A stretch of 12,738 nucleotides of DNA from a virus (taxonomy: Duplodnaviria; Heunggongvirae; Uroviricota; Caudoviricetes): positions 1 to 12,738 of IMG/VR virus record IMGVR_UViG_2802429224_000008; one strand, written 5' to 3'. Each line of letters begins with the position of its first letter. The stretch's first letter is position 1. Shown piece after piece: positions 3,001-6,000 of this stretch. Made by a program: the position numbers.

Positions 3001-6000
3001 CGCACAACCTGAATAAATATATCTGGCGTTTTATCGCCCTGAGCGCGGCACAACCGCGCGTGATTACCATCGAGGCCACCAGCGAACAGGAAGCGCGTCA
3101 GCAATCTCCTGATGGCTGCGTGATGGTATTCGCCGCCCGTATTCGCCAGGAGGTGCGCCATGTGCAATAAAAACACGCCGGACGCAGCAGGCGAAGCATT
3201 GAAAGTGCTGATACATGCGCTTGTGGATATAAATTGCATGGTAGAGATCATGGAGAGGAAATCACAGTCGGAGTACGACAAAAGAAAATTTAAAACAATA
3301 AAAATAATTACCAAAAACTCACTGACAAAAGCTACAGACATCCTCAATGAGGACACTAAAAGAATCAGGGAGAAACTGTGTGATGCATAAAATACCTTTT
3401 GATGTTCTTATTCATTCTGAGAATGCATTAATCCGTGCAAAGGAAATGGAGGCATTATTACTTAAGTTAATGGAAGTGCCGGAAAATGGCGATGAATCAT
3501 ATCCCATGATGTTTTCTGCCGTGCACACATTATTAACGCCAGTAATTAACGAATTAAATACGGTGATGGCAATTCACGAGAATAATAAAGCGCATCACAC
3601 CGGAGAATAAAAACCATGAAGCAGAAAAGTTCTGGCTTTACTGCCAGCGGCCTCCCTCGGCCTGAAATCCGCCCCGGCGATATTTACCGGGATAAATACG
3701 GCAGCACGATAACGATTAAAACCGTCGATGATTTTCGCGTGACCTATATCCGCGAAGGTTATGCGCATCCCTGCGTGTCGTCACTTATGCGCTTTGAAAG
3801 GGAATTCACCCTGGTAAGCAAAGCACCACCAGCGGACTTAAGCGACATCGACAGAATCATGCGCGTTACAGGTATGGAACGCATTAAGGCAGTACGTGAA
3901 ATTATTCGTGAACGGGGAAAGGCAAAATGAAACTGGCGCCGAACGTAAAACTGTTACCGAAAGATAAAGGCGAGGATGCAGTGATTTTTGCGGGGGATGA
4001 CGCATACAGCCACGCAGAGCATTACATGCAGGGCGGAGAAGCCAGAAAGCGCGGCGACAAAATACCACCTGTTTATCTCGGACGGCGTGACCTGGGTAAT
4101 CTGGAAAACCTGCGTATTGTGGATGATGGTCGGTCACGCGCCATCGTCAGACGTGCCGGAAAACTGGATGACAAACTGGCGCTACAGATTGAAACCCTGC
4201 TGGCAGTGGCTGGTGTTAAGGAAGCCTGTTTTTGTGACGAGAACGGCGATTTACTGGAGGACTGGACACCACAGCTTGCCCGACTGAAAGACGAATACGA
4301 GCGCGGGGAAAGTCTGGTGTTGCCCTTAAAGAAAAAAATCACAGAAAGCCAGGGCGATGATGAATTAAAGCCCCGCGTTGAAAGCCGCGCCGATGGTGTT
4401 TTCTGGGTAACGCCAAAAGTGGACAAGCAGTCAGGCGAAATTATCCGGCCTGAGACGTGGTTATGTTCTCCGCTTGAACTACTGGGAACGGGGACGATCG
4501 GTAAAGAGCATTACCGCGTGATGCGCTGGAAAAAGCCAGCAAACCATGAAGTCATCACAATGGCGATCCCATGTGGTGGCATTGGCGACCGTGACGGCTG
4601 GCGGTTGCTGAAAGACCACGGCCTGAACGTGACAACCAACGGCAAATACAGGGCTATCCTGGCTGACTGGATGCAGTTAAGCGGAAACCATGAGGAATGG
4701 CAGTTAAGCACAACAACGGGCTGGCATTTTGGCGCGTACATCATGCCGGACGGTTCGGTCATTGGTGATTGCGAAAAGCCAGTCCTGTTTACCGGAAAAA
4801 CGGCTGCTGTTAATGGTTATTCCGTGGCAGGAACGGCGGAGGGCTGGCGCGATACCGTTGCGCGGCTGGCTGGTGGTAATCCGTCCATGATGCTGGGTGT
4901 GGCGGTATCGTTATCTGCACCATTAATCGGGCTGGTGGGCGCTGACGGCTTCGGGGTACATCTTTTCGAACAGTCATCGGCAGGTAAGACCACAACGCAG
5001 AACATCGCATCAAGTTTATGGGGAGAGCCGGACGCGCAGCGGCTGACCTGGTACGGCACAGCGTTAGGTATCGCCAACGAAGCAGAGGCACACAATGACG
5101 GGCTTTTACCCCTGGATGAAATAGGCCAGGCCGGAAACGCGCGGGAGGTGTCCACGTCAGCCTATACGCTGTTTAACGGTTCCGGGAAATTACAGGGGGC
5201 AAAGGACGGCGGCAACAGGGAGATAAAACACTGGCGAACGGTGGCAATCAGTACCGGAGAAATGGACGTTGAAACATTCCTCAAAACGGAGGGGATAAAA
5301 GTCAAGGCGGGGCAGCTTGTCCGTCTGCTTAACGTGCCGATGGAAAAAGCCACGCAGTTTCACGAATACAGCACCGGAAAGGCACACGCAGACGCGTTAA
5401 AGGATGCCTGGACAGCAAATCACGGGGCGGCTGGTCGTGAATGGGTTAAATGGCTGGCAGACCACCAGCAGGAGGCAAAGGACACGGTAAGGGCATGCCG
5501 TGAACGGTGGCGCAACCTGATACCGGAGAGCTACGGCGAACAGGTTCACCGTGTGGGGGAACGATTCGCCATGTTGGAGTCGGCGCTGGTGCTTTCCGTC
5601 CATATTACTGGTTGGGATGTTCAGGCGTGCCGCGATGCCATTCAGCATAATTTTAATGCCTGGGTGAAGGAATTCGGCACGGGTAACAGGGAGTTTAAAC
5701 AGATGGTTGAACAGGCAGAGGCTTTTTTAGCGTCGTTTGGATTCAGCAGATACCTTCCGTGGCCCAACACCGACGAGCGTGATTTACCGATTAAAGAGCT
5801 TGCCGGATACAGAAAGGGGAGTATCAGAAACGAAGATGACGAGTTCCGTTTTTACACGTTCCCGCATGTATTTGAGGGTGAGATAGCACAGGGATTTAAT
5901 CCGTCTCACTTTGCCCGCGCGTTGAGTGCTGCCGGAATGCTGGAAGCGGGTAACGATCGCCGTTACAAGAAAAAGGCGCTCGGCAGGATTGGGGGGAAGC

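What the first reader, a model, noticed from the sequence alone, without database searches (positions are those of the whole stretch)
3160..3610. AT-rich two-gene insert translationally coupled inside the GC-rich replication operon
Region about 3200-3610 is visibly more AT-rich than the flanking genes and encodes two small proteins (76 and 75 aa) with no recognisable family. The first starts with a consensus SD overlapping the Icd-like stop, and each start overlaps the preceding stop, so they are obligately co-expressed with the replication genes upon induction. Such variable small genes at a fixed operon position in satellites often encode helper-interference or anti-defence functions.
Basis: inference. 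Interest (0 to 1): 0.45.

Follow-up and report, generated by a model that had tools for sequence, protein, structure and literature searches.

The report
Shuffled small-gene cassettes in satellite operon
The two AT-rich small genes are real, but they are not a foreign insert: they are divergent versions of two uncharacterised gene families that fill a fixed, recombination-shuffled slot in the early operon of E. coli phage satellites, the slot where satellite P4 keeps its helper-derepressing protein epsilon.

Summary
ORF1 (3160-3390, 76 aa) and ORF2 (3383-3610, 75 aa) overlap the preceding stops by 11 and 8 nt. They lie in the most AT-rich 440 nt of the window (GC 0.38 against 0.50).

The "insert" reading does not hold. 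In 86 related loci, every one has 1-5 small coupled genes between the Icd-like gene and DUF4222-primase. These come from about eight families. ORF1 belongs to F1 (phrog_5146, 67/86 loci). ORF2 belongs to F2 (phrog_2196, 66/86; the gene just before DUF4222 in 64 of 83 loci that contain it). The prototype island EcCICFT073 carries both, at 43% and 41% identity.

Against 93-96% identical backbones, only 3231-3584 is replaced, by a deeply divergent homologous allele block. Both genes are under purifying selection (dN/dS about 0.36). Both are predicted helical hairpins. No member tested matched 50,697 phage genomes. Neither has a known function.

Slot junctions are conserved (G-rich SD, 8- or 11-nt overlap). 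P4 epsilon shares the junction after an Icd-like ORF.

Most likely they are satellite early accessory proteins that bind helper or host targets, not replication factors. That function is inferred, not shown. Interest is moderate.

The parts
1757..1963 (+). AlpA-family regulator, the activator of the downstream satellite operon in E. coli PICIs
   Evidence: Pfam Phage_AlpA 4.5e-08. AlpA activates EcCICFT073 genes (PMC6092414).
2964..3170 (+). Icd-like gene, first gene of the coupled chain
   Evidence: NCBIfam NF033153 1.1e-19. Conserved in 1395 of 5426 E. coli genomes, where DNA similarity ends at about 3162-3168.
3148..3153 (+). AGGAGG Shine-Dalgarno for ORF1, part of the conserved slot junction (cAGGAGGTGnnCC-ATG)
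   Evidence: Sequence. The same junction precedes nearly every slot gene in 86 loci and P4 epsilon.
3160..3390 (+). ORF1, 76 aa. A basic (pI 8.8) and divergent member of slot family F1 (phrog_5146). Predicted helical hairpin.
   Evidence: AF2 pLDDT 88, helices 9-34 and 38-75. hhalign of its C-terminal part against other F1 members gives 98.8%. F1 family dN/dS is 0.36. pI.
3383..3610 (+). ORF2, 75 aa. An acidic (pI 5.4) member of slot family F2 (phrog_2196). Predicted helical hairpin. F2 is the usual last cassette before DUF4222.
   Evidence: AF2 pLDDT 85.6, helices 6-30 and 39-73. F2 precedes DUF4222 in 64 of 83 loci that contain DUF4222. F2 family dN/dS is 0.37.
3231..3584 (.). Divergent AT-rich allelic block: ORF1 codons 25-76 plus ORF2 codons 1-67. 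It is replaced relative to otherwise 93-96% identical backbones.
   Evidence: blastn of the window against L092, L091 and L002: similarity runs to 3230 and resumes at 3585 or 3609. GC profile.
3616..3930 (+). DUF4222 protein (basic family, median pI about 10.2), translationally coupled to the primase
   Evidence: Pfam DUF4222 1.2e-20. ATGA overlap with the primase in 82 of 83 loci. pI.
3927..6050 (+). DUF927 primase/helicase (Pri-Rep)
   Evidence: Pfam DUF927 1.1e-45; phrog_1139 DNA primase 8.5e-176.
6073..6229 (.). Replication origin: two opposed iteron sets (TTTTGCGGGTTA and TAACCCGCAAAA) flanking an AT-rich spacer
   Evidence: the repeat finder and sequence. The layout matches that described for E. 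coli PICI origins (PMC6092414).

Best explanation
Shown:
- The window is an E. coli phage-inducible chromosomal island (PICI-type satellite).
- Its AlpA-controlled early operon reads Icd-like, then a slot of small genes, then DUF4222, then primase/helicase, then the ori.
- The slot is a modular array of 1-5 small genes. The joints are conserved: a G-rich Shine-Dalgarno and a start that overlaps the previous stop by 8 or 11 nt.
- Cassettes from about eight satellite families are exchanged by recombination at or near these joints.
- ORF1 and ORF2 are a deeply divergent, AT-rich allele pair of the two commonest families: F1 (usually the first cassette after Icd-like) and F2 (usually the last cassette before DUF4222).
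- Both are genuine proteins under purifying selection.

Predicted: each is a helical hairpin of about 75 aa. This shape usually pairs into four-helix bundles and acts by binding other proteins.

Inferred: they are made stoichiometrically with Icd-like, DUF4222 and the primase when a helper phage switches on AlpA. They then act as small binding or modulating factors against helper-phage or host proteins. The precedent is P4 epsilon, which derepresses the P2 helper. They are not dedicated replication proteins.
For: Slot architecture and family membership:
- Chain-walk and clustering of 86 loci give F1 in 67, F2 in 66, and Icd-F1-F2-DUF4222 in 25.
- The prototype EcCICFT073 reads Icd-F12-F1-F5-F2-DUF4222-primase. 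ORF1 is 43% identical (6e-13) and ORF2 41% identical (6e-11) to its F1 and F2 genes.
- PHROG full-length matches. hhalign of the ORF1 C-terminal part against other F1 members gives 98.8%.

Allelic replacement, not insertion:
- Backbones at 93-96% identity differ from the window only in 3231-3584.

Coding:
- dN/dS is 0.36-0.37, like DUF4222 at 0.40 and the primase at 0.29.
- AF2 pLDDT is 88 and 86.

Independence from the replicon:
- The same ORF1/ORF2 allele class (at least 85% identical) occurs with three unrelated primase/helicase types (L019, L041, L072).
- Allele association decays with distance: AMI for F2-primase is 0.21 and for F1-primase 0.13.

Conserved joints.

Satellite-specific:
- The four members tested by tblastn against 50,697 phage genomes gave no match.

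Positional precedent:
- In P4 the ORF upstream of epsilon carries the same NF033153 Icd-like domain (7.7e-21).
- Epsilon starts with the same junction and the same first residues: MxNKNTP in epsilon variants against MCNKNTP in ORF1.

Operon-level phenotype:
- In ECOR61, Tn5 suppressors of phage-protein-triggered growth arrest map to an Icd-like gene and two adjacent small genes. The 8-nt overlap fits these being the next two genes downstream, if the operon is on the minus strand.
- Six linked genes including a primase were needed to rebuild the effect (bioRxiv 10.1101/2023.04.06.535777).

Co-expression:
- No promoter-like or terminator-like site on the + strand inside the chain.
Against: - No experiment or homology assigns a function to F1 or F2.
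- Foldseek finds only generic helical hairpins, all with E above 0.1. PDB profile searches are empty.
- No slot family is detectably homologous to epsilon (hhalign probability 1.7% or less). The epsilon analogy therefore rests on position and junction only.
- F2 sits immediately upstream of DUF4222-primase in 64 of 83 loci that contain DUF4222. That would also fit a replication-linked role.
- The Tn5 hits in ECOR61 could be polar effects, and I did not verify that locus's sequence.
- The 80 IMG/VR loci were chosen for high Icd-like similarity and may include redundant elements.
Confidence: 0.5

Rival explanations
1. Recently acquired foreign AT-rich insert (moron) carrying two novel genes.
For: - GC is 0.38 against 0.50, the lowest in the window.
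- Megablast similarity to most E. coli genomes stops at the Icd-like stop.
- Only 43 of 5426 complete genomes carry both genes at DNA level.
Against: - The slot is never empty in 86 loci.
- ORF1 and ORF2 are homologous to the genes they replace and keep the same order and joints.
- The F2 family is AT-rich in all 43 distinct alleles, although these have diverged to 14-40% identity.
- The compositional boundaries lie inside ORF1 and ORF2, not at gene ends.
Confidence: 0.07
2. Replication accessory factors. ORF2 in particular would act with DUF4222 and the primase, as a loader, an initiator modulator or a copy-number control like P4 Cnr.
For: - F2 is the gene immediately 5' of DUF4222 in 64 of 83 loci that contain DUF4222. 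The spacer is fixed at 4-5 nt and its last codons supply the SD for DUF4222.
- F2 is acidic (pI 4.6-5.5) and DUF4222 is very basic (pI about 10).
- P4 has Cnr directly before alpha.
Against: - The same F2 allele class (at least 85% identical) occurs with four DUF4222 alleles and three unrelated primase/helicase types.
- About 23% of loci lack F2 and have F4, F7 or F9 in that place.
- The F2-DUF4222 allele association (AMI 0.39) is no stronger than for other adjacent gene pairs.
- In EcCICFT073 a plasmid carrying only the replication gene and ori was built to test autonomous replication (PMC6092414). I did not read the result, or whether DUF4222 was included.
Confidence: 0.15
3. ORF1 and ORF2 form an obligate heterodimer, a four-helix bundle built from two hairpins. 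It would act as one unit, for example as an inhibitor or as a toxin-antidote-like pair.
For: - Both are hairpins of about 75 aa with similar helix lengths.
- Their net charges are opposite: +2.6 and -5.9.
- They are translationally coupled by an 8-nt overlap.
- The ORF1 clade is always found with the ORF2 clade: all five loci in the sample (L001 by tblastn identity), and no ORF1-only hit among the rows listed for E. coli genomes.
- They are inherited as one replaced block.
Against: - ORF2-clade genes occur alone directly after Icd-like in several loci, including the IHE3034 island, and in roughly 150 complete genomes.
- At family level F1 occurs without F2 and F2 without F1.
- The F1-F2 allele association (AMI 0.34) is ordinary.
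- The F1 family is generally acidic, so charge complementarity is peculiar to this clade.
- No complex prediction could be run.
Confidence: 0.12
4. Components of a phage-triggered growth-arrest (abortive infection or superinfection exclusion) module, acting together with the Icd-like protein.
For: - In the ECOR61 suppressor screen, Tn5 hits fall in the Icd-like gene and two adjacent small genes (61 and 63 aa, with an 8-nt overlap).
- All six linked genes were needed to rebuild the effect.
- The sizes and gene count match the Icd-F11-F12-F2-DUF4222-primase architecture seen in L049 and in 151 genomes.
Against: - The authors name the Icd-like protein as the likely effector.
- The insertions may be polar.
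- The ECOR61 cassettes appear to be F11 and F12, not F1.
- Identity of the ECOR61 locus with the L049 architecture is inferred from gene sizes only.
- Growth arrest may simply reflect runaway island induction (PMC6092414).
Confidence: 0.12
5. A non-coding AT-rich DNA element (origin, H-NS silencing patch or promoter region) with spurious ORFs.
For: Low GC. One weak promoter-like match on the minus strand at 3328-3301.
Against: - dN/dS is about 0.36 across dozens of alleles.
- Protein alignments are conserved.
- Fold predictions are confident.
- There are no iterons or inverted repeats in 2900-4000 and no Rfam hit.
- The real ori, with iterons, lies at 6073-6229.
Confidence: 0.03

Closest known systems
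Hypothetical genes C_RS06965 (WP_001372127.1) and C_RS06975 (WP_001204962.1) of the prototype E. coli PICI EcCICFT073
   Same: - Same families: ORF1 is 43% identical to the F1 gene (6e-13) and ORF2 41% identical to the F2 gene (6e-11).
- Same operon: Icd-like, slot, DUF4222, primase.
- Same order and same coupled joints.
- The operon is AlpA-activated in EcCICFT073 (PMC6092414).
   Different: - EcCICFT073 has four slot genes (F12-F1-F5-F2) and a different primase type.
- Its F1 is GC-normal (0.52) and belongs to the generally acidic F1 family. The window's ORF1 is AT-rich and basic.
- Neither EcCICFT073 gene has been studied. Only genes downstream of the ori were screened for interference (PMC6739421).
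Satellite phage P4 epsilon (helper derepression protein) in the P4 left operon
   Same: - The position is identical: the first gene after an ORF carrying the NF033153 Icd-like domain, and upstream of a small protein and the primase.
- The joint is the same: GGAGGTG, four bases, a start codon, then xGx-AAT-AAA-AA, with an 8-nt start/stop overlap.
- The first residues are the same: MxNKNTP in epsilon variants.
- It is a small early satellite protein.
   Different: - There is no detectable homology beyond the first seven or so residues (hhalign 1.7%; hmmsearch E 0.24).
- Epsilon is 95 aa, against 76 aa for ORF1.
- That epsilon acts by binding the P2 C repressor is from my own knowledge of the P4 literature, not checked here. 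The P4 record itself annotates it 'helper derepression protein'.
- ORF1 and ORF2 did not match Pfam Phage_ASH.
P4 Cnr (ORF106, DUF5375), the copy-number regulator encoded just before alpha
   Same: A small protein encoded directly upstream of the satellite primase gene. ORF2 and DUF4222 occupy comparable positions.
   Different: - No sequence similarity.
- DUF4222, not ORF2, is the gene actually coupled to the primase.
- The ORF2 allele is not tied to a primase type.
Phage accessory regions: fast-evolving small early genes at fixed positions between conserved genes (Silas et al., bioRxiv 10.1101/2023.04.06.535777)
   Same: - A fixed slot between conserved anchors.
- Combinatorial presence and absence of small genes of unknown function.
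- Most slot proteins are acidic.
   Different: - These families were not found in bona fide phage genomes, for the four members tested.
- The cassettes are welded by conserved translational-coupling joints rather than separated by intergenic spacers.
- dN/dS is ordinary, at about 0.36.

Membership tests
Gram-negative PICI (Fillol-Salom et al. 2018), for the element as a whole | Integrase at the left end followed by an AlpA-family activator | tested here: met
   int at 1-1242. AlpA at 1757-1963, Pfam 4.5e-08.
Gram-negative PICI (Fillol-Salom et al. 2018), for the element as a whole | Pri-Rep gene followed by an ori with two iteron sets flanking an AT-rich spacer | tested here: met
   DUF927 primase at 3927-6050. 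Iterons at 6073-6229.
Gram-negative PICI (Fillol-Salom et al. 2018), for the element as a whole | Helper-phage-dependent induction, packaging and transfer; defined att sites | not testable with these tools
   The window ends inside the element. Relatives sit next to tRNA-Pro/yejM.
Slot family F1 (phrog_5146) | Full-length profile match | tested here: met
   phrog_5146 at 6.9e-10, residues 1-69 of 76. hhalign of the C-terminal part against other F1 members gives 98.8%.
Slot family F1 (phrog_5146) | Conserved N-terminus MCN(K/N)xxPDAA and, usually, a start overlapping the Icd-like stop | tested here: met
   F1 directly follows Icd-like in 60 loci.
Slot family F2 (phrog_2196) | Full-length profile match | tested here: met
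   phrog_2196 at 6.5e-09, residues 1-71 of 75. The A5 profile finds 676 clusters; the 120 listed that carry a name are Escherichia or Shigella.
Slot family F2 (phrog_2196) | Last cassette, 4-5 nt before the DUF4222 start, with C-terminal ...TGE supplying the SD; low GC | tested here: met
   Stop at 3610 and DUF4222 ATG at 3616. The same arrangement holds in 60 of 64 F2-to-DUF4222 junctions. GC is 0.37 against a family range of 0.37-0.43.
P4 epsilon / Ash family (PF10554) | Sequence or profile similarity to epsilon/Ash | tested here: not met
   No Pfam hit at E up to 0.1. hhalign of F1 against epsilon gives 1.7% and of F2 against epsilon 0.2%.
P4 epsilon / Ash family (PF10554) | Position directly after the Icd-like ORF, with a coupled start | tested here: met
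P4 epsilon / Ash family (PF10554) | Derepression of a helper prophage by binding its repressor | not testable with these tools
   Needs an induction assay in lysogens.
Known anti-phage defence proteins (PADLOC-DB) | Profile match to a defence-system component | tested here: not met
   No hit for ORF1, ORF2, Icd-like, DUF4222 or the primase at E up to 0.1.
Anti-defence proteins (anti-restriction, anti-CRISPR and similar) | Homology or fold match to a characterised inhibitor | tested here: inconclusive
   No dedicated library was available. Pfam is negative. Foldseek against PDB and BFVD gives only generic hairpins, E above 0.1.

The most novel reading that the evidence does not exclude
The interval between Icd-like and DUF4222 (or Cnr) may be a satellite-specific 'epsilon slot'. 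It would be shared by P4-like elements and E. coli PICIs and cf-PICIs. Small protein cassettes would be swapped there through conserved translational-coupling joints. Each cassette family, including F1 and F2, would be a specificity determinant that binds a particular helper-phage regulator or a competitor-phage protein. The effects would include helper derepression, interference, or triggering Icd-dependent growth arrest. On this reading ORF1 and ORF2 are a rare allele pair tuned to a different target.
Probability: 0.25. Interest if true: 0.7.

Novelty: new member of a known kind. Interest (0 to 1): 0.4.

Why it matters
E. coli PICIs and cf-PICIs are widespread. An Icd-like gene of this type was found in about a quarter of complete E. 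coli genomes. These elements shape phage-host dynamics. Their early operon has been studied only for AlpA and Pri-Rep, and the small genes between them are drawn as blank boxes.

Three results turn the blank boxes into a defined experimental target:
- The genes form a limited set of families not found in sampled phage genomes.
- They are arranged as a joint-linked cassette array.
- P4 epsilon sits in the homologous slot.

If the cassettes prove to be helper-specific or defence-specific binders, they would explain part of satellite-helper specificity. They would also add a set of small protein inhibitors. If they are only replication accessories, the finding is routine.

Tried and rejected
- Pfam, NCBIfam and PADLOC on ORF1 and ORF2: only sub-threshold chance hits (Nucleolin_bd 0.046; MoaC 0.0032, far below its cut-off).
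- tblastn against the phage collection with ORF1, ORF2, a typical F1 and a typical F2: no match.
- Foldseek against PDB for both models and against BFVD for ORF2: best E 0.17-0.48. Hits are encapsulated ferritin EncB, histidine-kinase DHp, Tsi2 and Rop, that is, any helical hairpin. Rejected as uninformative.
- PDB profile searches: nothing below E 0.05.
- F1 against F2 as duplicates: hhalign 7%, rejected.
- Rfam at gathering and E-value thresholds, to look for a C4/CI-type immunity RNA upstream of Icd-like: nothing credible.
- Iterons or an ori in the AT-rich tract: none. The ori is at 6073-6229.
- Minus-strand ORF 2928-3356 (142 aa): only a weak PHROG hit over the part antisense to Icd-like. 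Treated as a shadow ORF.
- The long open frame 1968-3170 as an Ash-Icd fusion: no Pfam domain.
- Genome-contig scan with a DUF4222 alignment. The first alignment was too diverse. The second used narrow patterns and returned only E. albertii and E. ruysiae. This is not a fair measure of taxonomic range.
- An epsilon family profile: the IMG/VR epsilon homologues are 96-99% identical, so the profile is weak.
- Literature: no paper pairs DUF4222 with either other search term ('satellite', 'Icd-like'), and none describes these small genes.
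Full report
**1. What the window is**

The window is an Escherichia-type phage satellite of the PICI kind.
- It encodes an integrase (1-1242) and an AlpA-family regulator (1757-1963).
- Small minus-strand genes of the YlcI/YnfO kind follow. That name is how PGAP annotates this position in relatives; the window's own ORF gives only a weak HicB/Arc-like hit.
- Next comes an Icd-like gene (2964-3170, NCBIfam NF033153, 1.1e-19).
- Then come the two small ORFs of the finding.
- After them come a DUF4222 gene (3616-3930), a DUF927 primase/helicase (3927-6050), SSB, ProQ/FinO and PerC.
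- On the other strand there is a Nu1-type small terminase.
- Directly after the primase lies an origin with two opposed iteron sets around an AT-rich spacer (6073-6229). This is the layout described for E. coli PICI origins (PMC6092414).
- Relatives integrate beside tRNA-Pro/yejM.

**2. The observation**

ORFs and coupling:
- ORF1 is 3160-3390 (76 aa). ORF2, counted from the ATG at 3383, is 75 aa.
- The ORF1 start overlaps the Icd-like stop by 11 nt. AGGAGG lies 6 nt upstream.
- The ORF2 start overlaps the ORF1 stop by 8 nt.
- DUF4222 starts 5 nt after the ORF2 stop. The primase overlaps DUF4222 by ATGA.
- No promoter-like or terminator-like site occurs on the + strand within the chain.

Composition:
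- The stretch 3171-3610 has GC 0.384, against 0.50 for the window.
- It contains the lowest 440-nt windows of the whole sequence.
- Finer steps place the AT-rich tract at about 3230-3615. It therefore begins inside ORF1.

**3. It is not an insert**

Megablast of 2900-4000 against 5,426 complete E. coli genomes finds the Icd-like gene in 1,395 of them. In nearly all, similarity stops at window 3162-3168. Only five genomes cover 80% or more of the query.

I collected 80 IMG/VR loci with a close Icd-like gene, plus annotated E. coli loci. In each I walked the gene chain downstream of the Icd-like stop.
- All 86 loci, including the window, have 1 to 5 small coupled genes before DUF4222 and the primase.
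- Clustering gives a small repertoire: F1 in 67 loci; F2 in 66; F4; F5; F7; and the rare F9, F11 and F12.
- The families combine freely. The commonest single pattern is Icd-F1-F2-DUF4222, in 25 loci.
- ORF1 is an F1 member and ORF2 an F2 member. They match phrog_5146 and phrog_2196, both of unknown function.
- The divergent C-terminal two-thirds of ORF1 is still homologous to other F1 proteins (hhalign 98.8%).
- F1 and F2 are not related to each other.

The experimentally studied prototype EcCICFT073 reads Icd-F12-F1-F5-F2-DUF4222-primase. ORF1 and ORF2 are 43% and 41% identical to its F1 and F2 genes. The IHE3034 island reads Icd-F2-DUF4222-primase.

**4. What is special about this copy**

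Elements that match the rest of the backbone at 93-96% (L092, L091, L002) align with the window up to 3230 and again from 3585 or 3609.
- Exactly 3231-3584 is replaced. This covers ORF1 codons 25-76 and ORF2 codons 1-67.
- In L092 the same interval holds an F1::F5 fusion and a 77-aa F2. In L091 it holds F1, F5 and F2.
- The AT-rich tract is therefore an allelic block exchanged through the conserved 5' end of F1 and the conserved 3' end of F2.

Low GC is a constant of the F2 family: mean 0.394, range 0.368-0.429, GC3 0.375, over 43 distinct alleles. F1 is usually GC-normal (mean 0.485), and the window's clade is one of its AT-rich extremes.

This allele pair is uncommon. Both genes are found in 43 of 5,426 complete genomes. 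ORF2-like DNA alone is found in about 200.

The families are essentially confined to Escherichia and Shigella.
- Protein searches find 23 clusters for ORF1 and 85 for ORF2.
- A broad F2 profile finds 676 clusters. All listed hits that carry a name are Escherichia or Shigella.
- The exhaustive search finds only 15 representatives at 50% identity.

**5. They are genes, and what they look like**

- Pairwise dN/dS is 0.36 for F1 and 0.37 for F2. DUF4222 gives 0.40 and the primase 0.29.
- AlphaFold predicts each as a two-helix hairpin with high confidence: pLDDT 88 and 86.
- Fold and sequence searches against PDB and viral models return only generic hairpins, E above 0.1.
- ORF1 is basic (pI 8.8), unlike most F1 proteins. 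ORF2 and all F2 proteins are acidic. DUF4222 is very basic.
- None of the slot families has a Pfam domain or a PHROG function.
- The four members tested against 50,697 deposited phage genomes gave no match.

**6. The joints**

- Nearly every slot gene start is preceded by the same G-rich motif, roughly cAGGAGGTGnnCC-ATG.
- Starts overlap the previous stop by exactly 8 or 11 nt.
- F2 or F4 ends 4-5 nt before DUF4222 with GGAGAATAA or GGAAAATAA.
- DUF4222 overlaps the primase by ATGA in 82 of 83 loci.
- Allele association between genes is modest and falls with distance: AMI is 0.34-0.44 for neighbours, 0.21 for F2-primase and 0.13 for F1-primase.
- The window's ORF1/ORF2 allele class (at least 85% identical) occurs with three unrelated primase/helicase types.
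- Together this describes a cassette array shuffled by recombination at or near conserved joints.

**7. Link to P4**

The P4 left operon reads vis (AlpA-like), then an ORF of 137 aa, then epsilon, orf151, orf106/cnr and alpha.
- The 137-aa ORF carries the same Icd-like domain (NF033153, 7.7e-21).
- Epsilon starts 8 nt before that ORF's stop.
- The joints match. P4 reads GGAGGTGtcccGTGcgtAATAAAAA. The window reads AGGAGGTGcgccATGtgcAATAAAAA.
- Epsilon variants begin MPNKNTPQ or MHNKNTPQ. ORF1 begins MCNKNTPD.
- Beyond those residues there is no detectable homology (hhalign 1.7%).

ORF1 therefore occupies the epsilon position of a homologous operon, but it is not an epsilon homologue. The P4 record annotates epsilon as the helper derepression protein. 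That it binds the P2 C repressor is from my own knowledge of the P4 literature, not tested here.

**8. Other literature**

- In EcCICFT073, AlpA activates the downstream genes. AlpA over-expression causes runaway island replication and loss of viability (PMC6092414).
- Only genes downstream of the ori were screened for interference with lambda (PMC6739421). The slot genes are untested.
- In ECOR61, growth arrest triggered by a phage accessory protein (orf24) was suppressed by Tn5 insertions in an Icd-like gene and two adjacent small genes of 61 and 63 aa. These sizes are computed from the listed coordinates read as half-open. The 8-nt overlap fits these being the next two genes downstream if the operon is on the minus strand.
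- Six linked genes including a primase were needed to rebuild the effect (bioRxiv 10.1101/2023.04.06.535777).
- The sizes and gene count match the Icd-F11-F12-F2-DUF4222-primase architecture of L049, which is present in 151 complete genomes. This identification is inferred from sizes, not verified by sequence. Polar effects are also possible.

**9. Interpretation**

Shown:
- Family membership and conserved position.
- Allelic replacement rather than insertion.
- Protein-coding status.
- Independence from primase type.
- Conserved joints, and positional equivalence with P4 epsilon.

Predicted: the helical-hairpin fold.

Inferred:
- The proteins are produced together with the replication genes on AlpA activation.
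- They act by binding helper or host proteins.

I put about 0.5 on the combined statement, with the functional half the weak part. The rivals are a replication or copy-number role for ORF2 (0.15), an obligate ORF1-ORF2 complex (0.12), a part in Icd-linked growth arrest (0.12), a foreign insert (0.07) and non-coding DNA (0.03).

**10. Verdict**

The finding is a correct observation with an over-read interpretation. The two genes are ordinary, though rare-allele, occupants of a slot found in every related locus sampled, and their function is unknown. Interest is moderate. The slot as a whole is a neat, untested target in satellite biology, with its conserved joints, its families absent from the sampled phage genomes and its P4 epsilon equivalence. 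Nothing here is categorically new.

Noticed in passing
window 6073-6229: Replication origin directly after the primase gene. Two TTTTGCGGGTTA-type repeats (6076-6096) face four or five TAACCCGCAAAA repeats spaced 21 nt apart (6152-6226), across an AT-rich spacer.
   Followed up: yes
window 1968-3170 (+ strand): A 400-codon open frame runs into the Icd-like gene, antisense to the small minus-strand genes (2504-2629, 2633-2947). It has no Pfam domain. In relatives PGAP calls this stretch a long Icd-like protein (L001 5924-6301) or an 'ash family protein' pseudogene (L091 3121-3711). [quoted passage not shown]
   Followed up: partly
86 related loci; window 3148-3170, 3368-3390, 3602-3618: All slot gene boundaries share a conserved joint: a G-rich SD, about 6 nt, ATG, and an exact 8- or 11-nt overlap with the previous stop. 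As a result slot proteins end in ...HA, ...HVQ or ...SHA and begin MH.., MR.. or MCN... P4 epsilon and orf151 have the same design.
   Followed up: yes
L016, L025, L028, L031, L044, L092 and others: In several loci F1 and F5 are fused into one 150-155-aa ORF (…ADCENGGVMRDDRF…). The joint's stop codon has been lost, so two cassettes are read as one protein.
   Followed up: partly
L005 (NZ_CP054388.1) 4001-4127: The 5' half of an ORF2-like gene (82% DNA identity) abuts a truncated SSB gene in an IS-riddled degenerate island. The same fragment occurs in at least nine genomes.
   Followed up: partly
window 9964-10782: An orphan K88/F4-type fimbrial subunit gene (Pfam Fimbrial_K88, 2.8e-51) lies in the accessory end of the island. 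It is flanked by AT-rich DNA, with no usher or chaperone in the window.
   Followed up: no
window 8832-9416 (- strand): A lambda Nu1-type small terminase homologue (Phage_Nu1, 1.9e-67) is encoded on the opposite strand to the main operon. It is frameshifted in the closest relative, L001. It could relate to helper packaging redirection.
   Followed up: no
window 7282-7569 and 12367-12738: Two PerC-family regulator genes occur in one island. The second runs off the window end. There is also a ProQ/FinO-domain protein (6749-7285).
   Followed up: no
L089 (CFT073) 15192-15431: A DUF4222 gene also occurs in a lambdoid prophage, next to excisionase remnants. DUF4222 is therefore not satellite-specific, unlike the slot families tested.
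   Followed up: no
window 2928-3356 (- strand): This 142-aa antisense ORF has a weak hit to phrog_4106 (2e-05), but only over the part opposite the Icd-like gene. That PHROG is probably built from mis-called antisense ORFs.
   Followed up: partly
L087 (Escherichia albertii) 3619-6411: A more distant version of the operon: Icd-like at 55% identity, a single F11-like slot gene, DUF4222 and a DUF927 primase. The slot architecture therefore extends beyond E. coli.
   Followed up: partly
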